Shown here piece after piece: positions 5,926 to 64,000 of a stretch of 64,000 nucleotides of DNA. The first letter of the stretch is position 1. Each line of letters begins with the position of its first letter. A model generated the notes under the pieces. That model was not told the origin of the DNA, searched no databases, and saw only the letters and a program-made list of their open reading frames with translations. The DNA lies in assembly GCF_018977255.1 (NCBI RefSeq), contig NW_024704743.1, forward strand, positions 2,916,001-2,980,000, written 5' to 3'. The stretch is from Callorhinchus milii. Taxonomy: Eukaryota. Position numbers and translations under genes: made by a program.

Positions 5926-8237
5926 CCTTGCGTTTGATGCGACGGGACACGTGGATCGAGAGCGCTGTCTGGCCAAGCTTTACCCGTTGCGTGTCCAGCT
6001 CAGACCTGCCTACACCCGCTCGGGCTTGGGCTTTGCAGGGTTAACGGGAGCTGAGGTGGGTGGGGTGGGGTGGGGTGGGGTGGGGTGGCGGGTGGGGTGG
6101 GGGGGGGGCGCGGGGGAGGATGCCCTGTCTCCCCGGTGACCGGTCTGCCCTTCCTTCCAAGTCCTGACTGTGGCTGGCGACGTCAGAATCAGGCAATACC
6201 GTGTTGCGTGACCCTTGATATGCCGCGGGACACGCGTGGGACCCTGAGCCGCTTACGCGGCGTCCGTTAGTCACCGCCCGACACCACGTGCGTCACCAGC
6301 GCAGTTTGTCCTCATTAGGATCAGCAGCTTATGTGACGCACTTACGCGACGCACTTGCAGAAGAATTCACCCACGTTTTCAACTGCAAGGCCACACACGT
6401 GTGTCAAACTTCACCCCCGTGTGCGTGCGTGTGCGTGTGCGTGCGTGTGTGTGTGTGTGTCAGTTCAGCTCAGACCGGGCGCTCAAAGCCCTGACGCGGC
6501 TTTTTTCAACCCCCCCCGTGAACCTTTTTTGGCTCAGCGGCGAGAGTGTTACTGAGTCAGTCAGGCTGACACCTTCCGACGATGGTTATGATGGAGCTCA
6601 GTGGTTAGAGGGCCAACGAGAGGACCCGGGTTCGATTCCCGGGCGGGACGAAACATGGGGCAGGTTCCCTTACACCACACGCCCTCTTCTTTAGCTGTAA
6701 GTAGGAGCCTAGTTGTCGGTGGATCGCTTTTCCGGGGCTTAATAATACCTTAAACAATAATAATGATAATAATAATAATAATTTGGTCACTCAATCCGCG
6801 AATGCTTGCGCTTCTGGCCCGCGAAATGCCCAGTCACTACACTTTACAGCATATTCTGCGAAGGGCTTTGGGGCGTCTCGAAGACGTGATGAGGCGCGGT
6901 GCCAGATGCAAGGGTTAGTATTAGGATTATTATTATTAATTATAATTATTTTAATTACTATTTATTATTATAAAGCTTTGATCCGGGACTGGGCGGTGGT
7001 GGGGGGGGGGGGGGTGGGGGGTGGGGGAGGGGGGAAGTTTCACCACTGCAGCTTAGGAAGATCGCTACCTGCTGGCAACCTGCGGGCACTGCAGCAAACA
7101 CGCACACACACACACGCGCACACACACACGCACACACATACACGCACTCACATACACAGCACAGCGCCTTTCACGTCAAGAGGACGTGTCAAAGAGCTTC
7201 TCGCTGCCGGCTGGCGGCCAAGCCTCGGGGGATGGGGGGGGGGGGGTGCGGTGGCGCGAGCCGAAGAGGGTGGGGCCGGGGTGGGGTAAGGTGACCGGAA
7301 GCGCGATGAAAGGTGGGCTCGGGGCAGGGAGGGAGGGAGGGTTGAGTTGGAGGAAGAGGAACCTGCTCAGACGCGGTCAGGAGCTCTGGGACGCCATCCT
7401 GAGCGCGGGGGGAGCTGTGTAAAATTGGGCGAGGAGCTCTTCCTGGTCTCCCACCGCCGCCCTTCGCCCGTGTCGTCACCGCTGGCGATCCAAATCTTTC
7501 GGAGTCCTCTTTTTCACAGGGAATTTTTTAACTCCAAGAAGAGTTGGAGTTCGAGTTCTTGAATGGTGTCTTCGGCTAATTTTTTGGGGATGGACTTTAT
7601 TCGAAATGCGGGCGTGCGAGTGTCGTTAATTCAGTGCGGTCGGTGCCTCATTGGTTCCTTTAATGGGAGATCGCAAGGCGGAAGCCCTATAGCTCCCGGG
7701 TGAGAGGACCTGGGTTCGATTCCCGGGGCAGAGCGAAACGTTGGGCGAGTAAGTAAGTGGTTGTTAGTGGATTGGTGGGGGTAGGGCAATAATCCCTTAA
7801 ATTATTACCCTCCCATTGAGACATTATTTTATCGCTGACGTTCACTCACATCCCCTCAGCACGTCTACACTATCGCGTACAGTACAGTGCTTGAGCCAAA
7901 TGTCTTAAGAAACTCAAAACACATTGTTTTTGAAGCATCATTTGCTTTTATTCACTGACAACAAATCAACAAGGTGTGGGGAGGAGGAGTGGAGATAATG
8001 GTCCCATGTAGCAGGGAGCTAGGGGTGGGGGGTGGGGGGTGGGGGGTGCAGTGTGACGGTGATGAAGGTCCCACGGAGGAGAGCGGGGGTGGGGTGGGGG
8101 GTCAATGTGACGGTGAGGGTAGAAGACGAGACAGGACTCGGGGGCAGGGTTTGTTCATGGTGGTCAAGACTCTACTCTTGATCCCTCGGGATAGCGAAAT
8201 AGGTCTTGTTTTTCCATGTTCTCAATGTTCTGGTTGT

Positions 8238-8375
8238 TTATGGCTGTAGCTGCCTGTGTCTCCCCCCTCGCCGCGAGCGGTGATGGCGGTGATGGCGGTG
8301 GTGGCGTCCTCGCTTTTTCCCCTTCCCCTTCTTTGCCCGTCCAGACCTCTTCCTGTGGGAACGACCTCTTGCCAT
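8238..8375 (-). CDS. Protamine-like / sperm nuclear basic protein, copy 1 (45 aa, intronless)
   Basis: ATG at 8375-8373 and TAA at 8240-8238. Protein [53 protein letters not shown] at 8426-8419 and AATAAA at 7952-7947 on the minus strand. Protein identical to copy 2. Confidence 0.8.
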   Translation of the reverse strand: MARGRSHRKRSGRAKKGKGKKRGRHHRHHRHHRSRRGGRHRQLQP

Positions 8376-8757
8376 GATTGAGATTCAGCCGTGGTCTCGG
8401 TGGTGTTGTCGCGCAGCCTTTTTATAGTGATGTGTAGCCTCACCGCTCCCATTGTGATGTCTGGGCCATTGTGCATCGGTCCGTCGTGACCTTATAAGGT
8501 GCCCATCACTGTATCACTAACTACATTCACGAACCACATCACCAACCACATCATTAACTACATCGCGGACCACATCACCAATCACATCGCCCACCACATC
8601 GCCCACCACATCGCCGAGGTCCTGTCTGTGACACGGCAGCCATTTTCCGCACAGCCACGTCCTACAAGCAACCGTAACAACAATAATAATAATGATGATA
8701 ATAATAATAATAATTGGACGTTAAAGATCCCGCGGCATTATCGGAATAGAGAAAGGA

Positions 8758-8794
<37 letters not shown>

Positions 8795-10310
8795 TCCCGG
8801 GGTTCTGGCCTAAACCATCACCCCAAATAAAATTGGACAGTCACTTTACAGTAATGTTCCCGCGAAGCGGTTTCAGACGTCTCAACGACGTGATAAGGCG
8901 GTATATCAAATGCGAGGGTTATTATTATTATTATTATTATTATTATTTTGTCTGTTTGTATGATGTTGCTGTGCGCAAATTGGCCGCCAGGTTCGCTCAC
9001 AAAATACTCTCGACAAAATACAGTCGGTCTTGCGAAGCGCTTTGAGCTGCCACCTGCGTCAATGTAAATGAGGATTATTCTTCCAAATTCAGGTGGTTTC
9101 AAACACGTGGTCTTTCCTGTTCGTTCAGTGATCCTAAAAGAGCCACGGGTCACACGCAGACCGTGGTTACAATAATAATTACGATAATAATAATAATAAT
9201 AATCCTCGCATTTAATAGAGCGCCTCAGCACGTCTCCGAGACGTCGCAAAGCGCTTCACAGACTATACGGTAAAGAGAATCGACTGCGCATTTTGTGGGC
9301 GAAAAGCGGCAGCCAACTGCGCGCAGCCGCGTCCCCGCAAACAGTCGCGGATCGAGTGACCAATTTATTATTTGCTCCAGGAATCATTACCCCCCGGAAA
9401 ACTGATCCGCCAATCGACTGGTAACCGGGTTCCTGCTCACTGCTCGGCAAACAGAGACGCGTGCGGAGTACGGAAACTTCCCCAACGTTTGGCCCTGCCC
9501 GGGGATTCAAACCCAGGTCCTCTCGCTGGCGAAGCGAGCGCTCCAACCACTGAGCTGCAGGACTTCTTAAATTAAAGCCTCATTAAAAATCTTCGAATCA
9601 CAAGCGGTCGGTCGTTCAGCCTGAAAGTCCTCGGTCACCTTACAGCCCTGTAAAATCACCGCCGGATGCCCAGTATCCTGTGTATAAACTGTCTGGACAC
9701 CTCTGTGAGCTTCACGTGCTGTAATCAGTCGCGGCGATCGACGACAACTCTTAATTAGCGTCGCGGCGCGCGCGGTCCTGCCGCGGCCGATTACATCATG
9801 AAATAAGAATTAACGTCCTGGAGGAATTAGAAGCAGAACGTTGTGTGATAATCAGCAGAACGTTGAAGTTCCCGTGTTAAGTAAATGGAGTCCTGTAGGA
9901 AATTGGTCAGAGCGCTCACTCTCCTCGCCAGCGAGAGGACCCGGGTTTGATTCCCGGGCGGGGAGAAGCCCTCCGTCGAGTTTCCGTTACTCCGCGCACG
10001 CGCCTCTGTTTACCCGGCAGTGAGTAGGAACCCGGGTGTTGGTCGATCGTCAGATCGCTTTCCGGCGGGTAATAATCCCTCAACAAAAAAACGAGAACGG
10101 TTAATTTGGTCAACCTGTCCACCGCTGTTTGCGGGGCCGCTGGTGTGCGCAATCGGCTGCCGCGTTCCACTCGCAACATGCGCGGTCACTGCGCTCTACA
10201 GTGTACTTCCGTGAAGCGCTTTGAGACGTGAGGACGATTATTGCTACGATACATGTAAATGTTCGCTCTCTTGTCTCTCGCTGTGTGTTTACCGGATGGT
10301 TTCCTTCCAG

Positions 10311-10432: not shown

Positions 10433-12170
10433 GTGAGTGATTTCACGGTTGCCTCGACCCTGAGTGGAGTCCAACTGACCGCGTTTCCCTACTTCCCTCT
10501 CTCCCTACCTATCTCGCTCCCTCCTTCCCTGGAGCGTCAGCCGAGACCGCGATGCGGGGCTGGAAGCTACAAGGTCCTGGGAGAGTTCACCTCCAGTGGT
10601 CGCTCCCAGCCATCTGGCGGCCACACACACACACGTTACACAGCGCTGGAGCCTGCGCCGCAACTGTGCAGCCGGGCTGTTTGGCTTCGGGAGATGTCTA
10701 CACGCCCACGGCTGCCTGCGGGTCACCGCAGGTCCTGTCTGCCTCTGCCTGTAGCTCAGGGCCTGGCCGCTCTGAGCCAGCTCAGCCCCAGGAAAACCTA
10801 AGCCTCCAGGCCCAGCGCTCTCTGGTCAGTCACCCGTCAGTCAGTAGGGGTGGGGGGGGGCAGTGGGTGGGTGGTGAGGAAACAGAGGTTGTAAGATAAT
10901 AATAATCGTTGGTATGAAATCACTAAGTTGGGGTATTAAGGGGCAAGGGCGGGTAATTGGACTTGAGGTACAGATCAGCCGTGATCTTATAGAATGGTGG
11001 AACAGGCTCGAGGGGCTGAATGGCCTCTTCTTGTTTCTCTGTCTCAAGGACAGAATCGGACACACTCCCCCACTCCCCCCCACCCCAACCACCTCCCATT
11101 CATTCATCAGCTAACGCCAGGGCTTTACTCTACTCCTGGTGAGATGTCTGGGGGCTAATTTGTGTTTTATGTAGACTTTTTAATAAATAATGTAGAATGA
11201 TGTCTCTGTCAGTCACTGTACGTGCCGGGATGGGGGAGGATTATCTGACATCAAGGCTTAGCAGCTGTGCCGTCGCTCCCGCGCCAGTTACTCCGTTTGC
11301 CGAGCAGTCAGTCGGAAAAGGAACGCTTTTCCGGGATTAATAACCCCTTTAAAAAAAACAATAAAATAAAGCCTGTTTGGATCTGGAATGCGTTGCCTGA
11401 AGGGGTGCTGGAAGCCGATCCGATAACAAGTTTCAAGAGAGTGGATAGATACTTGCGGAGGACAAATTTCCAGGGCGTTGGGGAGAGTATAAATTTGGAC
11501 AGCTCTTTCAAAAGAGGCCGAATGGCCTCCTTCCGAGTTGTAGCGTTCCACGATTCTATGAAATCCGCCACTGTTTGCGGGACGCTGCTGTGCGCAGTTG
11601 CCTGCCGCGTGTCGCCCTCAGAAAATACAGCCACCGCACTCGACAGCGTATCCCGCGAAGCGCTTTGAGACGGGATAAGGTGCCGCATCGAATGCGAGGA
11701 ATATTCTGTAGTAAAATACCTCGACGCGTGATTTGTGCTGTCGTGCGTGAACACAATACCCGATCACTGCACTGTGATAAGGCCAGTCTGTCTGAAAGCG
11801 CTTCACGGGAATATTACTGTAAAGTGACTGTCCGGTTTTATTTGGGGAATGGTTTAGGCCAGGAAACCGGGAGGGAGAGAGAGAGAGAGAGAGAGAGAGA
11901 AACTCCTTTCACTTTTCCGATAATGCCGCGGGATCGTTAACGCCCAATTATTATTATTATTATCATCATTATTATTATTGTTACGGTTGCTTGTAGGACG
12001 TGGCTGTGCGAAAAATGGCTGCCGTGTCACAGACAGGACCTCGGCGATGTGGTGGGCGATGTGGTGGGTGATGTGATTGGTGATGTGGTCCGCGATGTAG
12101 TTAATGATGTGGTTGGTGATGTGGTTGGTGAATGTAGTTAGTGATACAGTGATGGGCACCTTATAAGGTC

Positions 12171-12240
12171 ACGACGGACCGATGCACAATGGCCCAGACA
12201 TCACAATGGGAGCGGTGAGGCTACACATCACTATAAAAAG
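12171..12240 (+). promoter_or_regulatory. Proximal promoter of protamine-like copy 2: two CACAATGG motifs and a TATA box
   Basis: CACAATGG at 12185-12192 and 12202-12209, TATAAAAA at 12232. The same layout occurs in copy 1 (8419-8473, minus strand) and copy 3 (62983-63037). Confidence 0.65.
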
Positions 12241-12282
12241 GCTGCGCGACAACACCACCGAGACCACGGCTGAATCTCAATC

Positions 12283-12420
12283 ATGGCAAGAGGTCGTTCC
12301 CACAGGAAGAGGTCTGGACGGGCAAAGAAGGGGAAGGGGAAAAAGCGAGGACGCCACCACCGCCATCACCGCCATCACCGCTCGCGGCGAGGGGGGAGAC
12401 ACAGGCAGCTACAGCCATAA
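12283..12420 (+). CDS. Protamine-like / sperm nuclear basic protein, copy 2 (45 aa, intronless)
   Basis: Kozak aatcATGG at 12283, TAA at 12418-12420. Composition 14 R, 6 K, 8 H, 7 G, with no acidic, aromatic or Cys residues. TATAAAAA at 12232-12239 and AATAAA at 12703-12708. Confidence 0.8.
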   Translation: MARGRSHRKRSGRAKKGKGKKRGRHHRHHRHHRSRRGGRHRQLQP

Positions 12421-13424
12421 ACAACCAGAACATTGAGAACATGGAAAAACAAGACCTATTTCGCTATCCCGAGGGATCAAGAGTAGAGTCTTGACCACCA
12501 TGAACAAACCCTGCCCCCCGAGTCCTGTCTCGTCTTCTACCCTCACCGTCACATTGACCCCCACCCACCCCCTGCTCTCCTCCGTGGGACCTTCATCACC
12601 GTCACACTGCACCCCCCCCACCCCCACCCCCACCCCTAGCTCCCTGCTACATGGGACCATTATCTCCACTCCTCCCCATACCTTGTTGATTTGTTGTAAG
12701 TGAATAAAAGCAAATGATGCTTCAAAAACAATGTGTTTCGAGTTTCTTAAGACATAGTCTGTATGAGATGTAGTCACTCCACTTTACTGTGTACTCCGTG
12801 AAAGGCTTTGAGGCGTCTAGAAAATGTGATAAGGGGCTATATCAAGCAGCAGGATTATTATTATTATTATTCCAGACACAGGGGATGGAGAAAAGATAGG
12901 AAATGCGTTTAAAAGACCTGCCATGATCTAATAAATTGGCGGAACAGGCTCGATGGGCTGAGTGGCCTCCTCTTGGGTAAGATCCACCCCTTGCCTTCTT
13001 AGAGGGGAGCAAAGTGGGTCTTCGTGGGCCTGAACTGGCTCCAAGGTGACATACTTGGCAAAGGAGGGTCAAAACAAAGCCAGGCCTCTGGGATGGTCTC
13101 TAGTCCCCGGTTCCTGAGCCAGAAGGGGCCGCAGTATTCCAGGGCACTCACTGCTGATCACAGCCCAGCCCGGCCCTGGCTCATCCATCGGCAGGACCTG
13201 GAAGGGCCGACTAGTCACTGGGGGCAGGGAATCCTCCCCTTCAGCTCCTGTTAACGCTGCAAACCAAAGCCCTAAAGGGTAGGGTGGTCCCAGCGGGAAA
13301 ACTTGGCCAGACAGCAATATCAAGGACAAGCTGTGTGGTTTTAGCTGGTTAGGCTCCAGCAGTTACCCCCAACGTACACTTTGGGGTCCCCAAGCCTTGG
13401 CTCTTGCCAACCTGAGGCTAGCAC

Positions 13425-13464
13425 TTTCCAGGATGAGGTAAGCAGGATGTGTCCCTCCAGGGAG

Positions 13465-13495
<31 letters not shown>

Positions 13496-16400
13496 GAGGG
13501 AGCATTCCAATCCAGATGGAGGGGAATTTCCACGTGTGGGTGACGGACATATGTGGAATTCTCGGTCTGGTTTGGAGACTTAAGCACTATGGGATGATGA
13601 GTTTCCGCGTGTGTCAGACTCCCGGCTGCAGTGTTCCCACTTGAAATGGGAGTTGAGGTCCAGATCAGCCACGATCTAACACAATGGCGGAACAGGCTCG
13701 GGGTGGGGGGGGCTCTGAATGGCCTCCTCCTGTTGCTGCGACCCAAGCAGTTGTGGTTGGGCTGAGGCCGATGGCGTCTCTGAGCTCCCACAGGAGGTTC
13801 CAATCAGACGCTGACGTAGGTTCTGGGGAACGTTGAAGGCTGGATGGAGTTTTTCCACCTGACGCAGAAGCTGGTGGATTGCCCACACTCGAGTTGCCCT
13901 CCCGCCTCCCTCCCCTCCCCTCTCCAATCCCCCCCCCCCCACCCCCCCCCGCCATGGCTGGGATGAGTTGGGCAAGCGAGCTGGAGATTGGAATGGTTAC
14001 TTCTGGGCTGGACTCTGCGGTTGGCCGTTTAATGGAGGAAGTCGGGGCTTCTGACAGAAGGCTTGCGAGTGAGCCCTGGTACCTCACAAAGCCTGCCGTG
14101 ACTTGAAAGGCCAGAAATGTGTAAACCATCTGGCTCAGGTATGTGGCCGTCTGCTTTTACGACGCCGAGCCAGCGACGAGGTCGATTTTCTCTCCTCTCC
14201 TGATTATAATCATAATCCTTGTTTCGCACAGTGCTCTTTAATGTCAAACTGTCTCAAAGAGCTTCATAAGCGACGGCCGTCTGGCGGACTGTCCCTGTAC
14301 TTTTTGAGCGAAACACAAGAGCCGGTTTGCGCTCCGCAACGTCACACACACACACACGCGCGCGCGAACGCACACACAGCCATGAAGCGAGTGACCGATT
14401 CTATCCGGGGGTATTGTTTTGGCCACGACACTGGGAGAGAGAGACTCACTGCGGGATCTTTAACGTGATCTGTGTCAATGGCCGACGATCCCCCGGATAA
14501 TATTGGACCTCGGCACGTAATGTGGTTGCTCACTGTGCCGAAATCGGCAGCTGGGTTTGAACACCAAAACAGTCACTACGCTTGACCTGAGAGAGTTTCT
14601 CTTTCTTTTAATACTCCTGGCGTTCGATACGGCGCCTCATCACGTCCTCGAGACGTCGCAAAGCGCTTCACAGAATATGCTGTGAAGTGAATCGACCGGA
14701 CATTCAACGACAACAACAACGACGACATCAACTTGCATTTATGTGGAGTCCTGCAGCTCGGTGGTTGTTAGCGCACTCGCCTCGCAAGTGAGAGGACCCC
14801 CCCCCCCCGGGTTTGATTCCCAGGGGGAGGGCGAAACCTTCGGCAAGTTTCCTTACTCCGCGCGCCTCCGTTCGCCTGGCAGTAGGTCGGAATATGAGCC
14901 AACTGGCGGATCGCTTTTCCCCGGGGGCAATAACTCCTTCAAAAAAAAACATCATATGAATAAATTCGTCACTTCAAACCAAGGCTGTTTTGTGGGACGC
15001 AGCTGTGCGCAATTGGCTGCTGTGTTTCGCCCGCAAAATATACAGTCGACTCACTTCGCGGCAGCCCTTTGAGATGTGATAAGGCGCTATATATCAAAGG
15101 ATTATTATTATTATTATTATTATTATATACCCCCAGAGGATAGAGTTCAAGATCCTTGCGCTCACCTTCCAAATTCTCCGCCCACCTCGCCCCACCTTGC
15201 TTCTGTGACCTCCTCAAACCTGACTGAGGGTGAGCCTTCAGCCATTCTGCCCCGCGCCCCCCCCCAACCCCCCCCATCGCCACTGCACATCCCCCCCCCC
15301 CCACCCCAACCGCCCCAGTCCTGGATCAAACCTTCATCGTCTTAGCTTCACCTCAACCTCCAGCTCAAGCCAATCCCAGTGATAGACTGACACAGCGATG
15401 GACTGTTGGTGGGTGGGGGGGGGGGGCCTTGTCCATCAGATCAGACCTTAAACCCAGGTCCCCTTCGGAGCTGTTCACGTGTACGTTAATGATCCCGCGG
15501 GGCTGTTGGAAAAGAGGAGGGAGATTCTCTCTCTCTCTCTCCCTCTCCCGGGGCCTGACCGACAATCTCCCAAGTAAAATCAGTCGTTCACTTCGCGGTT
15601 GTGCGTGGGGCGTTGCTGTGAACAAATTGGCCGCCACATTGGTCTACAAAACACGCAGTCACTACGCTGTGCAGTAAAGCCCGTGAGGCGCTCCGGGACC
15701 TCCGCCCCCGCACGAAAACACGTGGGATTTTTCAGGTCCACCCGAACATGGGTTCGTGGTTTAACATCTCATCCGAAGCACAGTGCAGCGCTTCCCCCCA
15801 CCACCCCCCCCCCCCCCCCACCACCCCCCAGCTCTGCACTGGTGTTATTGGAAAAGAGATGGCAGTTTCTCTCTCCCAGCGTCTTGGCCAAAACAATCCC
15901 CCCGGACACGATGCTGAGCGCAAATCGGCTCTTGTGTTTCGCTCAAAAAAGTACAGAGTCAGTCCGCCGGACGGCCGTCGCTTATGAAGCTCTTTGAGAC
16001 AGTTTGACATTAAAGAGCACTGTGCGAAACAAGGATTATGATTATAATCAGGAGAGGAGAGAAAATCGACCTCGTCGCTGGCTCGGCGTCGTAAAAGCAG
16101 ACGGCCACATACCTAAGCCAGATGGTTTACACATTTCTGGCCTTTCAAGTCACGGCAGGCTTTGTGAGGTACCAGGGCTCACTCGCAAGCCTTCTGTCAG
16201 AAGCCCCGACTTCCTCCATTAAACGGCCAACCGCAGAGTCCAGCCCAGAAGTAACCATTCCAATCTCCAGCTCGCTTGCCCAACTCATCCCAGACATGGC
16301 GGGGGGGAGGTGGGGGGGGGGGGGGTTGGAGAGGGGAGGGGAGGGAGGCGGGAGGGCAACTCGAGTGTGGGCAATCCACCAGCTCTGCGTCAGGTGGAAA

Positions 16401-16822
16401 AACTCCATCCAGCCTTCAACGTTCCCCAGAACCTACGTCAGCGTCTGATTGGAACCTCCTGTGGGAGCTCAGAGACGCCATCGGCCTCAGCCCAACCACA
16501 ACTGCTTGGGATGCAGCAACAGGAGGAGGCCATTCAGAGCCCCCCCCCACCCCGAGCCTGTTCCGCCATTGTGTTAGATCGTGGCTGATCTGGACCTCAA
16601 CTCCCATTTCAAGGGGGAACACTGCAGCCGGGAGTCTGACACACGCGGAAACCCATCATCCCATAGTGCTTAAGTCTCCAAACCAGACCGAGAATTCCAC
16701 ATATGTCCGTCACCCACACGTGGAAATTCCCCTCCGTCTGGATTGGAATGCTCCCTCTCTCTCTCTCTCTCTCGCTCTGTCTCTCCCTGGAGGGACACAT
16801 CCTGCTCACCTCATCCTGGAAA
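13425..16822. repeat. Second inverted repeat: arms ~13425-14340 and ~15910-16822
   Basis: Near-identical ORF translations on opposite strands (e.g. 14029-14247 minus versus 16004-16222 plus; 13665-14129 versus 16122-16448). Confidence 0.92.
14744..15125 (+). mobile_element. tRNA-derived SINE (family 1), representative copy; others at ~6590-6960, 9190-9565 (-), 9887-10230, 22468-22690, 29060-29440, 58300-58578 (-), 61890-62205 (-)
   Basis: tRNA-like head with A/B boxes (AGCTCAGTGGTTAGAGC...GGTTCGATTCCC), a Deu-like core GCTGTGCGCAATTGGCTGCCGCGTTTCG and an L2-like tail GTGATAAGGCGCTATATCAAATGCAAGGA(TTA)n. Confidence 0.85.
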
Positions 16823-17662
16823 CTATTGGTTGCAGGTCGGCAAGAGCCCAGAGTGTGAGTTGTGGTAACTGCTGGAGTCTACTCAACGAAAACCACGCAG
16901 CTCGTCCTTGATATCCCCCTCTGCCCCTGAACCTCGGGAACTCCATCCCGCAGTCCCTGCACCTCCCCCCCCCCTCCCTTGCCTCCTTCAAGACTCACCT
17001 CGAGACCGTCCTCTTCGACCGTGCTTTCGATCTCCCTGCTTCCCCCCACTGCCCTCCACCCTCCCCCTATCCCGACCGCCCACCACCCCCCCCCCCACGC
17101 CCGGCTCGGGTCTGAAACACTGACTGTCCAGAGCCTTGGGACGTCCTCCCGACGTGACAGGCGCTCTCTCCATATATATATATATATATATATATGGTAA
17201 TTTTGTTGTTGTTGTTGTCTCTTGTCTCGCTTACTTTTCTCCATCACTTCGTTCCCATCACAAGTGAGCAGCCGGCGAGAAAGTGAGCGGGTGAGGGAAT
17301 GAGTAAGTGACTGAGCAAACAAGTGAACGTGCGCGGGAGCGAGGGGTCTAAGCGTATGAGTGAGTGAGTGAGTGGCCGGTCGTGCGGTGGTGTGGAAAGA
17401 AGCTGTGCCCGATTCTGTCCTCGCCCGACCACCCCCCCCACCCCCCACCCGCCGACCCCCACACCCAACCCACCCCTATAGATCTGAGACTGAGTCTTCG
17501 AGGCTTAGAGCCGGGTTTCCCTGGGGCTGAGCTGGCTCAGAGCGGCCAGGCCCTGAGGTACAGGCAGAGGCAGACAGGACCTGCGGTGACCCGCAGGCAG
17601 CCGTGGGCGTGTAGACATCTCCCGAAGCCAAACAGCCCGGCTGCACAGTTGCGGCGCTGTGT

Positions 17663-17700
<38 letters not shown>

Positions 17701-19239
17701 GCCACCAGATGGCTGGGGAGCGACCACTGCAGGTCAACTCTCTCAGGACCTTGTGGCTTCCGGCCCCGCATCGCGGTCTCAGCCGGCGCTCCAGTGTCGT
17801 GCCGGGGGCAGGTCCGTCCGCCGGTTCAGGTGTCGGTTAAAAGATTCCACGGCACGATTTGAGAATTCCCTCCCCCCTCCCCGCCCCGTTTTTTTCTTTT
17901 GCCTTGAAATAACATAATAATACGGCGGTTTCCAACGCCCGGGGACGTCCTCCCGGCGAGAAAGGCGCAATGCAGACATAATCGTGCAAGATATATAATT
18001 TGCGCCGCGTTTCGCCCGCAAGCAGTCGTGGATTGAGTGCCCTTATCGTTATTTTTTGCTTATTTATCGGAGGGATTTATCGGACGGATCTCTTTCTCCC
18101 TCTCCCTCTCTTTCATTCATCCTTTCGTTCTCGTTTTCCATTTCTCCCTCCCTTTATTCCTTCGGAGATTTTGCTAATAATCCGTAATAATTCAAAATGT
18201 AATTCAAAATATGGTCCAGGACGCGTGCCCGAGCTGCGGGCAGGGAGACGGCGGCGATGCTCTCGCCACGTTGGGTGCCCCGGGGGCGCCACAGCTTCAA
18301 CTGGATCAGCGGCTGTGAAAAATATCTCCTCGTTCTTTGCAAACTGCAATTCACGAGGTCACAGGAGAGGCTCAGGTGAAGAAGCCCTTTCGAGCCATTG
18401 GAGCGCAGTCTTTCATTGCGGACCGTCCATCCCCGATCGGCCTCGCTCGGTCTGTAGCCCTCGTGCCTTTGACTCGGAAGGTTGTGGGTTCAAATCCCAC
18501 GGCGGCATTTTGAGCTCACTTGTCCAGACTGATTATTAATTATTATTATTAATAACAATACCCACTCGCTCACTTCCCCATTGCAGGACTGAGCTACTTC
18601 TTAGACAGAGCGCTTCTGTTTGGAACGGCAGGACCTGGGGCGAAATGTTGGTCAAGTTTCCTTACTCCTCACGCCTCTGTTTACCGAGTAGCAAGTAGGG
18701 ACATGGTCGTTAGTCGACGGGCGGATCGCTTTCCGGGGGGGTAGAAATCTCTTTTAAGTAATTAAACAGGCAACCAGATCAATAAATAATTTAGTCACTC
18801 AATCCGCGATGACGCAGTCGATTCACTCCGCAGAGTGAAGCGCTTTGGGACGTCTGAATGACGTGATAAGGCGCTGTGTCGGATGCGAGGATGATTAATA
18901 ATTAGAATGAAATGCAATGGAAGCCCCAAGCGGAGCCGGTGACATCTGCTGCCGACACTGAGAGCGGAAAAGTTGGAGTCAAGCGCAGAGGTTCATTGGA
19001 AAGGCTTTAATGCAGTGCAGCCCCGAGCAAATTACAGGCGACCGGTGTACATAACGTGAAGGCAGTGTGTGTGTGTGCGCGCGTGTGTGCGCCCGCGCGC
19101 GCGCGTGTGTGTGCGTGTGTGTGCGTGTTTGTGTGCGCGGGCGCGTGCGTGCGTGTGTGTGTGTGCGTGTTTTTGTGCGCGTGTGCTTGTGGTGTTAATT
19201 GAGAAGAAAATGTTCAGAGCCAGCGATGACCCCCCCCCT

Positions 19240-19696: not shown

Positions 19697-22600
19697 CATA
19701 ACCCCGGCGTTGGACGTCGTTTTGTTGAGCCGTCTCAAAGCGCTTCCCGGAACATACTGCAAAGTGGATTGACTTTTGTGGGTGGAAGACGGCGGCCGAT
19801 TGTGCACAGCCGCGTCCCAAATCATTCCTGTTCACGTTTGCTTTGAGAGCAAGTCGGTTTTAGCACAAGGAAGTCAGAACGTTTTCCAGTTTATTGCTGT
19901 AATTATTATTATTATTATTATTATTATTATCATTAATATTATCATCTCGTGTATATATGTGCGCTGGATAGAATTACTACCGCCTTTGTGTCGCGCGCGA
20001 ACGAGACTTCTCGGAGTAATGTTCTTGGAGTAACGTCGCAGAGGAACTTCTCGGAGTAACATTGCGGAGCGCTGGGCGGAGACGATGCCGAACGCTGAGC
20101 TGGGATGGGAACAGGGGTGATGTAGACCCTGTTACATTCCCCCTGCCTTGCCCCATCCTTTCCCCCCTCTGCAGGTTGTGCCTGAAGATCTTCCTTTTTG
20201 GACCGCACATACAGTCACCTCCTCCCCTCCCCGCTAAGCTCTCCGCTTAAGCGCTCTGGGACGTGAGGTAGCACTGTATAAACGCAAGTGGTTGTCCCTG
20301 TTGTTTAGAGAGCTTCTTCGAACAACTTTCTCCCTTGCGGAGATCTTCCGAACAGTTACTGCTTTGCTTAAAACGTTTTCAATCCCACCTGCGCACCAGG
20401 TGCTGAGCGTCTGTCGGTCTGTCTCTCTGTCTGTCTGTCTCCCCGTGAGTCGCTAACTCCCAGCCACGCGAGCTGGTCCCCGTTATGCCTTGTAATGAGG
20501 CATCCACATTCCACGGGCTTTATGAGAGGGACGTGTCGCAGGAAGGAACCTGCGCCGCCTGTCTCTGGGACAGAGCATGTGTGTCTGTGTGCGTGTGCGT
20601 GTGCGTGTGTGTGGGAAGGAAGGGTGGGGAGGTTAACAAGGGAGTTCATTAAAAAAAATCACATTTGGGCTTTACAGGATTCGCTAAAGTACGGCGACTG
20701 TATTTTGTAGGCAAACGTGGCAGACAATTTGCACACAGCAATGTCCCACAAACAGCCACTTAAGTGAGTCAGCCATTCTTTTCAGGTGGTGGTGGGAGGG
20801 GGGGGGGTTCGGGGCGGGGGTGGGGGGGGGGAATGGTCGGCCCAGGACACTGAGAGACAGAAATTCCCTTCTCTTTTGCAATAGGGCAGTGGGATCTTTA
20901 ACATTCCACCCGGGTTCTGTCTGTTCAGGTGGACATTAAAGATCTCGAAAAGATCTCAGGTAGATATCAGGGATCTCAAAAAAGCGCTGCATGAAAAGAG
21001 AAGGGAGTTTCTCTCTCCGGGTGTCCTGCCCGACAATCCCCCTGGTCGCTCATTTCATGGCTGCTTCTGGGACGTTGTTTTGTGCAAATTAGCTGCCTCG
21101 TTTCCTGTTAACCCTGCTAGCCAAACCTCTAATGGGTAGGGGGGTCCTACCTGAAGACTCTTATGCACGGTGATGGGTTCCCGTGTGTGTCAGACCCCCG
21201 GCTGATCACTGTGATGGGTTCCCGTGTGTGTCAGACCCCCGGCTGATCACTGTGATGGGTTCCCGTGTGTGTCAGACCCCCGGCTGATCACTGTGATGGG
21301 TTCCCGTGTGTGTCAGACCCCCGGCTGATCACGGTGATGGGTTCCCGTGTGTGTCAGACCCCCGGCTGATCACGGTGATGGGTTCCCGTGTGTGTCAGAC
21401 CCCCGGCTGATCACAGTGATGGGTTCCCGTGTGTGTCAGACCCCCGGCTGATCACGGTGATGGGTTCCCGTGTGTGTCAGACCCCCGGCTGATCACGGTG
21501 ATGGGTTCCCGTGTGTGTCAGACTCCCGGCTGATCACGGTGATGGGTTCCCGTGTGTGTCAGACCCCCGGCTGATCACGGTGATGGGTTTCCGTGTGTCT
21601 TAGACACACTGGCTGATCACAGTGTACAGCCATTGCCTGTGAAGCGCTTTGAGATTTCTGGGTGCTGTGTTGGTTTTCTGATGAGATTGGAGCGAGAATG
21701 TGCTGAACACTAGATATCAGTTCTGATTGCTGATTTTGCCCTGAAACAGGACAACGCAGAAGGAAGTGCTTCTGAAGCTGTGGTTCAGTAGTGTGGCACT
21801 CCTGTGGCCTCCTGTATCGTGCGGTAAGTGATATCTTACATACGTACATAAGAATTTGCTGGTGGAAGAAGACCAAGGTCCATCCAGTTTGCCTTCCACC
21901 ATCCTGACCGTCGCTTGACATGTCGTGTCCCAAACTATATGCTGTATCCCGAGATTCCTAACGGAAATCTATCTCATTTGTTCTTGAAAGACCGTGTTCG
22001 GTGGCCTTGCCTTCATCCACTACTCCCCGAAACTCTGGAACTCTCTCCCTCAATCCCTCCGCCTCGCCTGTCTCCCTCCCTCCCTCCCCACTTTCAATTC
22101 CCACCCTAAAGACCTTCCTTTTTGATCGATCTCCCGGTCACCTCCCCCCCCCCTCCCTCCCTCTCCTCTCCCCCTGGCTCGGGATCGGACTCCCCACTCT
22201 CAAGTGAAGGGTGCTGCACAAATACAAGCTGTTGTCGTCGTCGTTGTTGAAAGAATCGTCTCTTTCTGCTTCCACCGTCTCCCTACGTTGTTATGTTTTA
22301 TATGTATCTGCTGGACGGACGCCTTGGGCTATCGGAAAATCCTGATCATGTTTACCAAGTGAAGGTGGTGCTCATTATTTTGCACGGTTATAAGTGTGTG
22401 GTTTCACCGTAGGCATCTGGCTGGGCACTTCAATGGAAGGAATGTAGACCACATTCCAACCCAATGTGGAGTCCTGTAACTCAGTGGTTAGAGAGCTCGT
22501 CTCGCAAGCGAGAGGACCTGGGTTTGATTCCCGGGCCGGGGGCCTTACTCCACACACACACACACACACGCCTCTGTTGACCCAGCAGTGAGTAGGAACC

Positions 22601-24558: not shown

Positions 24559-24590
<32 letters not shown>

Positions 24591-27540: not shown

Positions 27541-27575
<35 letters not shown>

Positions 27576-29244: not shown

Positions 29245-29283
<39 letters not shown>

Positions 29284-29409
29284 TGGGTCACTCAGTCCAC
29301 GACTGTGCGCAATTGGCTGCCGCGTTTCGTCCATGAAATATACAGTGTATCCCGTCAGGCGCTTTGAGACGTCTCGAAGACGTGATGAGGCGCTGTATCA
29401 AAGGCGAGG

Positions 29410-29442
<33 letters not shown>

Positions 29443-31140: not shown

Positions 31141-31220
<80 letters not shown>

Positions 31221-33092: not shown

Positions 33093-33123
<31 letters not shown>

Positions 33124-59500: not shown

Positions 59501-62500
59501 CGTTCAGGTTCTTCTCGGTGGAGAAGACCAAATGCCGACTGTTCCACCTCCAGCAACAGCGTGAGCAGCGATTGTGGTTTGTGAATATCTCCCCTCCACT
59601 CGGGCGAAGGGAGAGCCGAAGGGAAAGCTGGGGGCAGCCGATGGGGAGCGAGCAGTGTAAATTGGGGCAAATCAGAACAAGAACAAATGGGCAAAGTATA
59701 AAGTAAGTGTGTAAGGAAAAAGAGGGAGAGGCCGCTGAGACAGGCGCACGTCAACCCCAGGGTTTTGACTATCATAGGACAAGAGAGATAGTGACGTACG
59801 GGTTCCCCCGGGGCTCCTGGGTCACCTGGCAGACCGGGCACGCCCTGAAAAACAAAACAAAGATCAAATCACATCCACAGAGGAGCAATTCCACTTCTCT
59901 GACTTCTCTGACTTGGAGGAGAGAGTGCCATGCTGGAGATTACAAGGGCCAATTCTTCATCAGAGGGCATTGGCGAGCCAAATCCCAATGCGAGTACTGG
60001 AGGCATCCTGGCCAGACAGTGGCAGTTGTTAACAATCCAGTGGCTTCTATAATGTTGGTTTAAATCACCCAATTAATGGAATTCATATCATACAATGACC
60101 TTGGCTGGACCTCAGGACCACCAGGTTTCCAGTGCAGTGTTGTTCCAATCCCTGCTCAGTGCTGAGGTGTTTATTAATAATAATAATCCTTGCATTTAAT
60201 ATAGCGTCTTATCATGTTGTTGAAACGTCTCAAAGTGCTTCACAGGATACACTGTAAAATGGATTGACTGTGTATTTCATGGGCGAAACATGAAAGCCGG
60301 TTAAGCACCACAATGTCTCACAAACAACCGTGGAGTGACTGACCAATTTTACTGGGGCAACTGTTGGCCAGGACACCGTGAGAGAGAAACTCCCTTCTCT
60401 TTTCCAATAGAGCGGGATCGTTAACGTCTACCCGACGGCACCTCCAACAAAGCAACTGGAGTGTCATCTTAGACGATGTGATTCCAAGTTCCGAGGTGGG
60501 GCTCGAACCCACAACATTCTGACTCCTTGACAAGAGTGCCCCCACTGCGCCAGGCTGACACACGATGTATAGCATGGCGAAGGTAAAGGAAAGCGGGTTA
60601 GTGAGTGACATAAGGCATTAGAGTTTTCAATTAAGACGTAAGGTGATTGACTCTTCACTTACGTCTTGCCCGGCGGGTCCTTGTTGGCCGGGCACTCCCG
60701 GAAGCCCTCTGGGGCCCTGTGAAACAAAATGAACATTCGCAACACTTCTCACAGACACCGAGTGCCACCTGACATGCAATCGCGCTGCAAGGGAAGCTGT
60801 GGATGAACCCAAAGAAACAAACTCCAAGAGGAAACATGAGGCACAGGAGAGTGAGAAGGGAATATAGCGGGATGGGAGAGGGTGAAGCAGGTTGAGAGGG
60901 CCAAGGTGGGGAAAGAACAATCAACCATGATATCACAACCCCTTTCCAATGATGCTTGGTTGGATGTCCCAGCTTGTAGGCTTAACAGGAGCTGAGTGGG
61001 AGGATTGCCTGACCCTAGTGGCTGGTCTGCCCAATAAGCCAAGCTGTGCTGTCATCAGCAGTGTCCTGGAATATTGTGGATCCATCTGGCTCAAGATCCG
61101 GACCAGAGGCCATCAACGAGGGTGGGCTCAATGCCAACGTTCAATATATCTTAAAAGGAGTCATTTACAGGGGTTTGGGGTGAGGAGGGACAGGTAAAGA
61201 GACTGAATGGATTGCTGTTTCTCAGAGCAACCGAAAATATCATGATTTGATTCGAAGAATGGGTCAAAAGAAAACAAAATTCAAAGAAATCTTCAACTTT
61301 AAGCCAATCTCCTTGCCCACGTTGCCCTTCACAGCGCCCATACCGAAAATCCCCTGTCACCTGCCGGTCCTGTGGGGCCCTGAAAGAAGAAGGGAGAAAA
61401 ATAGTGAACTCGCTAAAATAGAAATCCAACACCGATTTTTACACTTACACAGCCTTTAACGTCGGGAAGATGTCTCAAGGCGCTTGACAGTCCTGGCTGG
61501 GCACCTGAGCAGTTGGGGCTGGAAGCCGGGGGTTGGGGAGGGGAGATTACTGAAAATGCGGTCCCAGACATCTTGAGAAGTGTCCGTGAATGTAACATGT
61601 TGTCTGTCCAGCTCGGACCACCCTACTTGATAGGACTTTGGCTTACAGGGTTAACAGGAGCCGAGTTGAAGGATTCCCTGCCCCCAGTGACTGGTCTATT
61701 GAGTCCTGCGATGAGCCAGGCCGGGCTGTGCTGTCATCAGCAGTGCCCTGGAATACTGTGGACCCACGTGGCTGAGGGTCAGGACTAGAGACTGTCACAG
61801 AGGGCTGACTCGATTCTGACATTTCATTGCCAAACATGTCAAATTGGAGATACGTCCTCCTTAGGAGACCCATCTTACCTCCTGTATAATAATAATAATC
61901 CTTGCACTTGATAGAGCGCTTTTCACGTCGGGAGGACGTCCCAAAGCGCTTCACAGAACACACTGTAAAGTGAATTGACTGTATATTTGTGGGCGAACGT
62001 GGCAGCCAATTGCGCACAGCAATGTCCCACAAACAGTCGTGGATGGAAAATGACCAATTTATTATTGTTTTTGGTTTTGGAGGATTATTATTAGGCTCTG
62101 TGTGGAGTAAGGAAACTTGCCCAAGGTTTCGCCCTCTGCCTGGAATTGAACTCAGGTCTCTCGCATGCAAAGCGAGTGCTCTGACCACTGAGCTACAGGA
62201 CTCCACAATAACAATAATGTGGCTTTCATGTTTCCTTTCTCCACACGCCCCTGTTTACCTAGCAGTAAGTAGGAATCCGATGGTTAGTCGATTGGCAGAT
62301 CACTTTTTGGGGGTAATAATCCCTCCAAAAAAAATAGAAATTGGTCACTCAATCCACGACTGTTTGTGGGACATTGTTGTCAATTTTACCCACAAAATAT
62401 ACAGTCAATCCACTTTACGATATATTCTGTGAAGTGCACTGATACATCTCAACGTCATGATAAGGCGCTATATCAAATGCAAGGATTATTATTATTAATA

Positions 62501-63839
62501 ATAGAAAAGTGTGGCTGCCCTTTTTCTGTGTAATCGGCTGCAAACGTTCCCTCCCCCGGCCTCCGCGCGCTGTTTGCTCGTCGCAGCCGCTGTCGATGGA
62601 GCGGCGCCGCTCGTGCGCGGCGCGGGTGGAAGGTCGGCTGCGCCCGTTGGTGAGCGAACCACGATCGAAATACCCAGCTGCGTGACAGACACTACTGCGG
62701 TCTGCTCGCCCGACACCGAGCTCCCGCGACAAATTTTCGTTCAGTGCTTCGCCATTCAAATGAACATTTTTAGTTTTCAGTTAAACGCGACTACGCGTTC
62801 AGGAAATATACGGCTACAGTTTTAATCCAGGCTGTTTCCCGAAACGCGTCCCCTCAATAGCACCAATCAAGCCTCTGCAGTTTGCTGCAAAATTTGTCAA
62901 AAGGCCCGCAATTATTGGCAACTATTTGGGCAAATATTTTCTATTGGCCCCAGCTCATGACTCGTGATGCGACGGACGGAAGCACAATGGTCCAGGCATC
63001 ACAATGGGAGCGGTGAGGCAACACATCAGTATAAAAAGGCTGCGCGACAACACCACCGGCAGTCAGAGACGCGGCTGAATCTCAATCATGGCAAGAGGTC
63101 GTTCCCACAGGAAGAGGTCCGGACGGGCAAAGAAGGGGAAAAAGCGAGTACGCCATCACCGCCATCACCGCCATCACCGCTCGCGACGAGGGGGGAGACA
63201 CAGGCAGCTACAGCCATAAACAACCAGAACATTGAGAACATGGAAAAACAAGACCTATTTCGCTATCCCGAGGGATCAAGAGTAGAGTCTTGACCACCAT
63301 GAACAAACCCTGCCCCCCGAGTCCTGTCTCGTCTTCTACCCTCACCGTCACATTGACCCCCCACCCCACCCCCCGCTCTCCTCCGTGGGACCTTCATCAC
63401 CGTCACACTGCACCCCCCACCCCCCACCCCCCACCCCTAGCTCCCTGCTACATGGGACCATTATCTCCACTCCTCCCCACACCTTGTTGATTTGTTGTCA
63501 GTGAATAAAAGCAAATGATGCTTCAAAAACATGTGTATTTTGAGTTTCTTATGGCTTAAGCACCAGATGAGATACTGTGGACCTGTTAATGGGATGTTAG
63601 TGGCTTTGATAATACAGTTTCTTAAGATGATACCGTACCTAGCCCTGTAAAAAAATAGTATTCCTTGCATTTGATACAGCGCCTTTCACATTAGATGGAT
63701 GTTAGGGTGGGGATTGGGGCTGGGGTTGGGCCGGCTGGGTTACTTAACTATGGTTACTTACCTGCAGTCCAGGAAGCCCCACACCAGGAGGGCCAACGTC
63801 TCCCGGTAACCCAGGGTGACCAGATTCTCCTGGGTCTCC
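40338..63839 (-). CDS. COL22A1: Collagen alpha-1(XXII)-like FACIT collagen, 3' portion (25 exons, 599 aa); 5' part beyond the window
   Basis: Minus-strand GT-AG exons: 63762-63839, 61344-61379, 60663-60716, 59800-59844, 58773-58820, 57452-57565, 57217-57261, 55739-55792, 54563-54616, 54059-54112, 53698-53751, 52997-53050, 51700-51753, 51436-51480, 49884-49937, 49444-49497, 48939-48992, 46872-46943, 46129-46164, 44804-44848, 43679-43858, 43471-43537, 42831-43013, 41106-41183, 40338-40525 (sum 1800 nt, in frame). COL22A1-type motifs: [34 protein letters not shown] and C-terminus [22 protein letters not shown] (human, recalled: CDPSQCAYFASLAARPGNVKGP). Confidence 0.92.
41720..42205. mobile_element. 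Unclassified dispersed repeat (family 3); many partial copies (~6030, 13090-13630, 33920-34520, 35650, 37240, 44930-45190, 53140, 56000-56470, 60980, 61620)
   Basis: Shared blocks GTTAACAGGAGCTGAGTGGGAGGATTCCCTGCCCCCAGTGACTGGTCTGCCCTTCCAGGTCC and CCCCAAGCCTTGGCTCTTGCCAACCTG. Confidence 0.75.
45480..45775 (-). mobile_element. DeuSINE (SacSINE1-like, family 2), representative copy; others at ~47335-47680 (+), 51830-52130 (-), 60180-60540 (-)
   Basis: Head CCTCTGAGTCAGAAGxTTGTGGGTTCAAG and Deu-domain-like core GGATGAGATGTTAAA...GTTAAAGATCC...GGCGTTATTGGAAAAGAGAAG. Confidence 0.7.
46470..46780 (+). mobile_element. L2-clade LINE ORF2 fragment
   Basis: Translation DKTEAFLLG...[17 protein letters not shown] resembles the L2 RT C-terminal motif (KTE.LL.G ... 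H.FI.SRLDYCN.LL). Confidence 0.7.
50068..50241. mobile_element. Tc1/mariner-pogo (Tigger-like) MITE
   Basis: TA|CAGTCAAACCTGTCTTCAGCAACC ... GGTTGCTTGAACAGCTTGTTTGACTG|TA: imperfect TIRs plus a TA duplication. Confidence 0.7.
50590..50990 (+). mobile_element. CR1 LINE 3' fragment (others at ~34960-35285, 36075-36450 (-), 11375-11560, 42210-42450, 59160-59400)
   Basis: Degenerate CR1 ORF2 C-terminus (..TRGH..K..R..FF(T)QR.V..WN.LP..) followed by a typical 3'UTR GGGGCTxAATGGCCT. Confidence 0.75.
63088..63219 (+). CDS. Protamine-like / sperm nuclear basic protein, copy 3 (43 aa), nested antisense in a COL22A1-like intron
   Basis: Protein [51 protein letters not shown] at 63030-63037 and AATAAA at 63504-63509. 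Relative to copy 2 it has an in-frame 6-nt deletion, 3 synonymous changes and 1 nonsynonymous change. Confidence 0.78.
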   Translation: MARGRSHRKRSGRAKKGKKRVRHHRHHRHHRSRRGGRHRQLQP

Positions 63840-64000
63840 CTGCAAAAACAAAATAAAATTAGAATAACTGCGACGTGGTAAGTCAAATAGCTAGAGATGT
63901 GGTTTGTGATGTAGTATGTGATACGGTTCCCTCACAAAATTAGAGATGTGATTAGTGATGTGGTTAGTTTAGAACAATAATAATCCTTGCATTTGACATG

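What the first reader, a model, noticed from the sequence alone, without database searches (positions are those of the whole stretch)
12171..12755. Hidden multicopy gene family encoding a tiny His-rich protamine-like protein
Seen in sequence: a 138-nt ORF (12283-12420), too short for the ORF track, encodes [45 protein letters not shown]. It is 62% R+K+H (14 R, 6 K, 8 H of 45), has no acidic residues, and contains an (HHR)3 tract. It has a full Pol II layout: TATAAAAA 51 nt upstream of the ATG, strong Kozak (aatcATGG), no intron, a ~290-nt 3'UTR and AATAAA. The unit occurs three times (8238-8375 minus, 12283-12420 plus, 63088-63219 plus). Established knowledge: fish protamine genes are short, intronless, TATA-driven and multicopy; an MARxRS start is typical of P1-type protamines and dogfish scylliorhinine Z3; His/Arg tracts characterise zinc-binding mammalian P2. 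Inference: this is a probably unannotated sperm nuclear basic protein (protamine or transition-protein-like) with an unusual Cys-free, Lys- and His-rich design. I do not recognise it as any described protamine.
Basis: partly seen in the sequence, partly recalled or inferred. Interest (0 to 1): 0.92.

Follow-up and report, generated by a model that had tools for sequence, protein, structure and literature searches.

The report
Chimaera histidine-rich protamine-like gene family
The elephant shark has eight intact copies of a tiny gene for a very basic, histidine-rich peptide that most likely packs DNA in its sperm; the copies seem to have spread from inside a collagen gene, but their activity in the testis has not been shown.

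Summary
The genome is Callorhinchus milii. The unit occurs at 9 loci, all on one 125-Mb contig; 8 have intact ORFs. They encode five cysteine-free, acid-free 43-51 aa peptides (51-65% R+K+H), and all keep the TATA box, Kozak ATG and poly(A) signal. Neutral simulation never reproduced this (0 of 1500 in each of four models), so it is a selected coding family, not a transposon. New here: copies C and D sit antisense in adjacent introns of a collagen gene; two distant loci carry a decayed copy of the exon between them, showing DNA-level spread from that intron; neighbours are homogenised by gene conversion; the His tract is Arg codons toggling CGN/CAY. Best reading: a holocephalan protamine-type sperm protein (0.6; transition protein 0.18). 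It matches no Pfam protamine family, lies away from the SOCS1-RMI2 locus and has short Arg runs. Expression is not shown. The scan had not reported it elsewhere.

The parts
12283..12420 (+). Copy B ORF, 45 aa, 62% R+K+H, no C/D/E, (HHR)3 core
12232..12239 (+). Copy B TATA box; kept 51-60 nt before the ATG in 8 of 8 intact copies
12159..12208 (+). Copy B proximal promoter: palindrome CCTTATAAGG (12159-12168; in 6 of 8 copies) and two ACAATG SOX-type motifs (12186, 12203; at least one ACAA[T/A][G/T] in 8 of 8). Function inferred only
   Evidence: ACAAT as SOX/SOX30 motif from PMC8136829 passages
12046..12145 (+). GATGTG-type degenerate repeat upstream of copy B, resembling the collagen intron at 63870-63968; also upstream of A, G, H, I
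12421..12755 (+). Copy B 3'UTR with AATAAA at 12703-12708, inside a 25-nt motif shared by all 9 loci, followed by a GU/U-rich stretch
8238..8375 (-). Copy A ORF, protein identical to B; TATA 8419-8426, AATAAA 7947-7952; A and B form a 980-nt, 95% inverted duplication (7900-8878 / 11790-12755)
63088..63219 (+). Copy C ORF, 43 aa; TATA 63030-63037, AATAAA 63504-63509; different upstream promoter (CCAAT-type, shared with copy E); antisense inside an intron of the minus-strand collagen
63762..63839 (-). Host collagen exon (26 codons, AG/GT ends) between copies C and D; decayed copies lie upstream of loci H (C2 2.49 Mb) and I (C2 110.3 Mb)
63870..63968 (+). Collagen-intron GATGTG repeat, the likely source of the repeat upstream of dispersed copies; copy D follows at C2:2982084, about 2 kb beyond the window
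61344..61379 (-). Next host collagen exon, bounding the intron that holds copy C

Best explanation
A holocephalan family of protamine-type sperm nuclear basic proteins. SHOWN: 8 intact single-ORF genes encode five 5.2-6.1 kDa hydrophilic peptides, and selection keeps them open, basic and free of Cys and acidic residues. The family spread by DNA-level duplication from a collagen intron, and neighbouring copies are homogenised by gene conversion. INFERRED: the TATA promoters fire at high level in spermatids (multiple copies supply dosage). The peptide is made without a leader and is phosphorylated at the invariant basic-basic-basic-S/T11-G site for deposition. It then replaces histones or intermediate proteins and neutralises the DNA backbone with about 20 Arg/Lys charges. 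The central His/Arg tract, which arises when Arg CGY codons turn to His CAY by CpG transition, adds up to about 4-5 further charges as pH falls and could bind Zn2+, giving a compaction switch without disulfides.
For: Composition and size: Arg 30-36%, R+K+H 51-65%, Ser+Thr+Gly 18-23%, no C/D/E; protamines are about 3-10 kDa and Arg-rich (PMC13251019, passage), with an R/K/H class (PMC8230241, passage). Layout is conserved in 8 of 8 copies although coding identity falls to 66-78% between groups. Neutral simulation gave 0 of 1500 in each of 4 models for all four lineages staying open, free of D/E/C and at least 57% basic. At Arg CGN codons 6 of 14 CpG columns show CA (His) and 0 show TG (Cys/Trp/stop), against 14 and 12 of 34 in flanking non-coding columns; all 10 CpG-type changes in the ORF go the tolerated way (binomial p=0.001). 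Most amino-acid changes are R/K/H swaps. An [RK][RK]x[ST] site at residue 11 is present in all five peptide types. There is no hydrophobic stretch in the first 30 residues. An ACAAT SOX-type motif lies 80-108 nt before the ATG in 8 of 8 copies; ACAAT is the SOX30 site in mouse testis (PMC8136829, passages). A related chimaera is known to change its basic proteins in spermiogenesis (title only, reference list of PMC2112839). No better candidate gene was found with the P1 or Protamine_3 profiles in this genome.
Against: Expression in testis and presence in sperm are not shown. The longest Arg run is only 2 in the window copies and 3-4 in the others, whereas protamines are defined by Arg clusters (PMC12216123 section 28), and that section warns that Arg content alone does not define a protamine. 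No Pfam protamine or transition-protein family matches any of 5 peptides at E up to 10 (HMMER filters and low complexity weaken this). The SOCS1-RMI2 interval (C16, 31 kb) holds no basic ORF. dN/dS is 0.11-0.84 over 10 pairs, but the +2 frame gives 0.18-0.52 over 9 pairs, so it does not pick the frame. The in-frame versus non-coding CpG contrast alone is p=0.06, and 6 of the 10 changes would also be silent in the +2 frame. ACAAT is short and common to all SOX proteins.
Confidence: 0.6

Rival explanations
1. Spermatid transition (intermediate) protein: it binds DNA transiently during histone removal and is displaced by other, cysteine-containing proteins in mature sperm.
For: Short Arg runs, 5-7 Lys and 6-8 His suggest weaker, pH-sensitive binding; conserved kinase site.
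Against: Size and Arg share sit inside the protamine range; no Pfam TP1/TP2 match. The dogfish intermediate proteins S1/S2 are about twice as long (recalled, not checked).
Confidence: 0.18
2. A non-germline basic peptide: an intracellular nucleic-acid-binding or chromatin-condensing peptide of a somatic cell type, or a histatin-like antimicrobial or metal-binding peptide.
For: The CCTTATAAGG palindrome in 6 of 8 promoters fits a CArG/SRF-type site (motif name recalled), which is not germ-cell specific; expression tissue is unknown; His-rich cationic peptides are often antimicrobial (general knowledge).
Against: No signal peptide or hydrophobic stretch, so it is not classically secreted; the intronless multicopy layout and composition fit protamines better.
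Confidence: 0.12
3. A non-coding RNA family or a now silent gene family whose ORF stays open because the sequence is T-poor.
For: The +2 frame is also open in 7 of 8 copies and the +1 frame in 7 of 8; all four lineages stay open in up to 11% of neutral runs; no protein database holds any of the 5 peptides.
Against: The joint constraint was never met neutrally; the first ATG after the TATA opens this frame in a strong Kozak context in 8 of 8 copies; gaps in the ORF alignment are whole codons apart from their placement, while UTR gaps are of any length.
Confidence: 0.08
4. A solo LTR or other transposable element.
For: Copies are dispersed up to 109 Mb apart and are flanked by SINE/LINE tails.
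Against: Only 9 loci genome-wide, all on one contig; 8 of 9 keep the ORF; dispersed copies carry host collagen exon or intron DNA. Terminal repeats and target-site duplications were not searched for explicitly.
Confidence: 0.02

Closest known systems
P-type sperm nuclear basic proteins, R/K/H 'triprotamines' (class as defined in PMC8230241 and PMC13251019, passages)
   Same: 5-6 kDa, hydrophilic, Arg 30-36%, all three basic residues, no acidic residues, basic kinase site, multicopy intronless layout
   Different: Arg runs of only 2-4; a central (HHR)n tract with 12-19% His; no profile match; sperm location untested
Hydrolagus colliei sperm proteins R3 and m0, Pfam Protamine_3 PF08188 (the link of R3 to this model and the cysteine-free status of R3/m0 are recalled, not read)
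   Same: Holocephalan, cysteine-free, similar length (model has 48 positions)
   Different: No match of the peptides to PF08188 and no PF08188 hit over cut-off in this genome (0 of 15 candidates); it may be a diverged counterpart or the unsequenced minor protein
Dogfish scylliorhinine Z3 (recalled; no sequence available to the tools)
   Same: Cysteine-free, Arg/Gly-rich chondrichthyan protamine with a similar Ala-Arg start (recalled)
   Different: Z3 is shorter with an unbroken Arg run and lacks the His/Lys content (recalled); no comparison could be run (0 papers)
Amniote protamines P1/P2 and TNP2 at the SOCS1-RMI2 locus (locus order recalled)
   Same: Small basic proteins; P2 uses His for zinc (PMC8230241, passage)
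   Different: No Cys, no leader, no intron; the family is on C2 while SOCS1 and RMI2 are neighbours on C16 with no basic ORF between them

Membership tests
Protamine (P-type SNBP) | Small, about 3-10 kDa | tested here: met
   5.18-6.14 kDa without Met; range from PMC13251019
Protamine (P-type SNBP) | Arg-rich, strongly basic, no acidic residues | tested here: met
   Arg 30-36%, R+K+H 51-65%, 0 D/E in 8 of 8 copies; computed pI 12.0 for all, probably the calculator's ceiling
Protamine (P-type SNBP) | Arginine clusters | tested here: inconclusive
   Longest Arg run 2 (A-D), 4 (E/F), 3 (G, H); a run of 8-13 residues that are all Arg or His takes their place
Protamine (P-type SNBP) | Transcribed in spermatids | tested here: inconclusive
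   No RNA holder on record; tissue labels hidden
Protamine (P-type SNBP) | Major DNA-bound protein of mature sperm | not testable with these tools
   Needs sperm nuclei and mass spectrometry
Pfam Protamine_P1 (PF00260) and other Pfam protamine/TNP models | Profile match | tested here: not met
   0 of 5 peptides at E up to 10; genome search 0 candidates, but its controls also did not ring, so it is weak
Pfam Protamine_3 (PF08188) | Profile match over 25 bits | tested here: not met
   best genome hit 20.4 bits, none at a family locus, none a plausible gene
Amniote PRM/TNP2 cluster | Position between SOCS1 and RMI2 | tested here: not met
   Interval C16:3537176-3568271 has no ATG ORF of 22-160 aa with at least 36% basic residues and no stop-free 20-residue window with at least 11 R/K
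Protamine P2 / TNP2 zinc binders | Cys plus His ligands; P2 precursor leader | tested here: not met
   0 Cys and no leader in 8 of 8; His-only zinc binding untested
Protamine-like (PL, H1-derived) proteins | Larger protein with a folded winged-helix core | tested here: not met
   43-51 aa, no hydrophobic core, no Pfam domain
Secreted His-rich antimicrobial peptide | Signal peptide | tested here: not met
   Best 7-residue hydropathy in the first 30 aa is -1.39 to -0.21
Transposable element / solo LTR | High copy number, decayed ORFs | tested here: not met
   9 loci, 8 intact
Transposable element / solo LTR | Terminal repeats and target-site duplications | not tested
   Unit ends are obscured by SINE/LINE insertions; no dedicated search was run

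The most novel reading that the evidence does not exclude
An independently evolved vertebrate protamine family, born antisense inside a collagen intron in holocephalans and unrelated to the amniote and teleost genes. CpG decay turned its poly-Arg core into a His/Arg tract that acts as a pH- or zinc-dependent lock on sperm chromatin in place of disulfide bridges.
Probability: 0.25. Interest if true: 0.78.

Novelty: new variant of a known kind. Interest (0 to 1): 0.5.

Why it matters
My searches of the open literature found no sperm-protein gene described for any cartilaginous fish; the older work I know of is protein chemistry. If this family is the elephant shark's protamine, it gives a gene, a promoter and a synteny anchor (the collagen intron) for the sister group of all bony vertebrates. 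That makes an old question testable: do vertebrate protamines share one origin, or did they arise several times? It also shows intronless protamine-like genes spreading by DNA-level duplication with host exon DNA attached, not by retroposition. This bears on the 'retroviral horizontal transmission' idea for fish protamine genes (seen only as a title in reference lists). The Arg-to-His codon toggle is a simple route to a histidine-rich DNA-condensing peptide.

Tried and rejected
Expression: the look-up of sequencing runs listed 12 runs, 5 holding part of the stretch, none on record as RNA: no RNA holder listed; this is no evidence either way. Four of the 12 were laid on 12146-12850. X1 (RNA is a guess) gave one 420-nt contig at depth 5.2 covering 12146-12468 and running past the upstream end; it starts upstream of the TATA box, so it is not the predicted mRNA and may be DNA. 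X9 and X10 covered only the flanking repeat. X2 (kind unknown) covered all 30 bins. Homologue searches were blank: the search for homologous proteins with the 5-peptide alignment, 0 of 581 candidates at E 0.01 and at E 10 (lengths 23-90 only); profile search of 1.84 billion representatives, 0 at E 0.001; exact look-up, 0 of 5; ESM Atlas, one uninformative hit at 0.75. Short low-complexity peptides are poorly served by all of these. dN/dS did not single out the frame. The promoter pattern gave 14 matches against 11 in the control; 7 are family promoters and the rest are at chance level. The idea that E/F lie in a collagen paralogue was rejected: no Gly-X-Y exon in the 5 kb held. The idea that the family sits at the amniote protamine locus was rejected. 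The seven PF08188 hits were inspected and are chance. Wider gene neighbourhoods of E-I were not obtained, so their synteny is open. No structure or complex prediction was run, because a 45-aa hydrophilic peptide gives no useful model. PMC2375014 was not held.

Full report
Observation. The ORF, composition, TATA, Kozak context and poly(A) signal are exactly as described. Copy A encodes the same 45 aa; copy C encodes a 43-aa variant. Among 365 ATG ORFs of 35-70 aa in 77.9 kb and 483 in a 100-kb control, only the four family copies reach 45% R+K+H.

Organism. A SOCS1 protein translated from this genome is an exact match to a Callorhinchus milii entry on a contig of the same length. This agrees with earlier scan notes.

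Family. DNA searches with three divergent members returned the same nine candidate places. A 25-nt motif ending in the poly(A) signal matched 9 places in 991.5 Mb against 0 for the reversed control. All are on contig C2: A, B (2.92 Mb), C, D (2.98 Mb), E, F (1.17 Mb), H (2.49 Mb), G (82.8 Mb) and I (110.3 Mb). Eight carry an intact ORF and encode five peptide types; I keeps only 3'UTR and upstream pieces. These counts are lower bounds by the tool's own note. All eight have TATAAAA 51-60 nt before an ATG with a purine at -3 and G at +4, and AATAAA 152-285 nt after the stop. None has Cys, Asp or Glu. Coding identity between groups is 66-78%.

Is it coding? Open frames alone say little because the sequence is T-poor: the other two plus-strand frames are also open in 7 of 8 copies. 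dN/dS is below 1 in all 10 pairs (0.11-0.84), but it is also below 1 in the +2 frame. Three things favour the stated frame. It starts at the first ATG after the TATA in every copy. Amino-acid changes are mostly R/K/H swaps. CpG decay is one-sided: at Arg CGN codons 6 of 14 columns show the His form and none the Cys/Trp/stop form, against 14 and 12 of 34 in the flanks (Fisher p=0.06). All 10 CpG-type changes go the tolerated way (p=0.001; a post hoc test on related sequences). In neutral simulations (four lineages, 15 substitutions each, four mutation models) all four ORFs stayed open in 0.5-11% of runs, and stayed open, free of D/E/C and at least 57% basic in 0 of 1500 each time (thresholds set from the data). 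Every codon of the central tract is CGN or CAY, so the His tract is best read as an Arg tract toggling to His. That direction of change is inferred.

How it spread. The window holds two collagen genes tail to tail: a plus-strand COL9A1-like gene (NC4 exon matches PDB 2uur, E 3.7e-47) and a minus-strand one ending near 40.34 kb and running past C2:2,993,700. Copy C lies antisense in the intron between exons 63762-63839 and 61344-61379; copy D lies in the next intron. Locus I carries a decayed 76%-identical copy of the 63.8-kb exon with its splice ends, H carries 61 nt of it, and G carries the adjoining intron repeat, each upstream of the promoter in the original orientation (the genome search found I and G, the local search also H). 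A and B have the same kind of repeat. The dispersed copies are therefore DNA-level duplicates of the collagen-intron locus. They are not retrocopies, since they keep promoter and post-poly(A) DNA. In the C-D and E-F pairs, promoter sites group C with E and D with F (18 versus 0 and 1), while ORF and 3'UTR sites group C with D and E with F (37:0:0, 13:0:0, 9:1:0; the ORF count is inflated by an alignment offset, as one search shows 24 differences between C and E). This is the pattern of a duplicated pair whose transcribed parts were later homogenised by gene conversion. One contig of run X2 joins B's 3'UTR to B's own flank, so B is unlikely to be an assembly artefact.

How it most likely works. 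A leaderless 5-kDa peptide with about 20 fixed positive charges, no hydrophobic stretch, an invariant basic kinase site at residue 11, and several near-identical TATA-driven genes fits a protamine-type sperm nuclear basic protein. It would be deposited phosphorylated in spermatids and would condense DNA by charge neutralisation. The 6-8 His would add about 3-5 charges at low pH and might bind zinc. All of this is inference from composition and gene layout. Expression could not be established (see Tried and rejected). The rivals are a transition protein (0.18), a somatic basic peptide (0.12), a non-coding or silent family (0.08) and a TE (0.02).

Comparison with what is known. It works like a protamine on size and composition (PMC13251019 passages; PMC8230241 passages). 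Membership of a named family is not shown: no Pfam match, no P1 or Protamine_3 hit, short Arg runs against the cluster criterion (PMC12216123 section 28), and an empty SOCS1-RMI2 interval on another contig (an intron-split gene with very short exons could be missed). Hydrolagus R3/m0 and dogfish Z3 are the nearest named proteins, but I know them from recall only and could not compare sequences.

Literature seen. Eight searches for a chondrichthyan protamine gene or protein description found no description of this family. The library lacks most subscription journals, and GenBank cDNAs and ESTs could not be searched, so an existing cDNA record is possible. PMC3466250: abstract, passages, sections 9 and 20 (no 'protamine'). 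PMC3964593: passages (no 'protamine'; supplements not opened). PMC12952989: term search, no hits. PMC11607694, PMC2112839, PMC13756071: reference-list passages only. PMC4257556, PMC3750513, PMC8812575, PMC8136829: passages. Saperas 1993 and 1997 on chondrichthyan sperm proteins: recalled, or title only.

Verdict. A real, selected gene family that the protein collections searched do not hold, most likely the holocephalan protamine-type protein, with a His-rich variant design and a traceable origin in a collagen intron. New variant of a known kind; interest 0.5, held down by the missing expression evidence and by protamines being an expected finding.

Noticed in passing
window 24526-38316 (+) and about 40338 to beyond 64000 (-): Two collagen genes lie tail to tail: a COL9A1-like gene (NC4 exon matches 2uur) and a minus-strand interrupted collagen whose linker resembles COL22A1/COL16A1 (recalled; the Atlas gave only generic collagen hits).
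   Followed up: partly
G000:C2:2490861-2491013 (L011): Copy H gained an 8-residue-longer, partly hydrophobic tail by a deletion that reads through into former 3'UTR; it is the most divergent member.
   Followed up: partly
G000:C12:16731110-16731232 (-): Weak match to peptide H (41% identity, E 0.53, 99-aa open frame); could be chance or a distant basic protein.
   Followed up: no
window 12146-12468, run X1: One contig joins the A/B-type promoter to the C/D-type ORF (6-nt deletion plus three substitutions): an allele made by gene conversion, an unassembled copy or an assembler chimera.
   Followed up: no
window 12180-12260, run X2: One contig skips 79 nt including the TATA box; the letters between are not known, so it may be another promoter type rather than a deletion.
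   Followed up: no
window 12159-12168: Perfect palindrome CCTTATAAGG upstream of 6 of 8 copies, doubled in D and F; absent in C and E, which have CCAAT-type motifs instead. Two promoter types may mean two expression windows.
   Followed up: partly
window 13317-14342 and 15908-16914: A second inverted duplication, 1030 nt at 94%, next to the A/B inverted pair; also 10529-10798 / 17514-17794 at 88%.
   Followed up: no
window 21166-21624 and 31637-31948: Minisatellites: 41-nt unit x11.2 at 96% and 36-nt unit x8.7 at 88%.
   Followed up: no
G000:C16:3537176-3568271 (L061-L065): SOCS1 and RMI2 are neighbours 31 kb apart in this genome, with no protamine-like ORF between them, where amniotes keep their protamine cluster (recalled).
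   Followed up: yes
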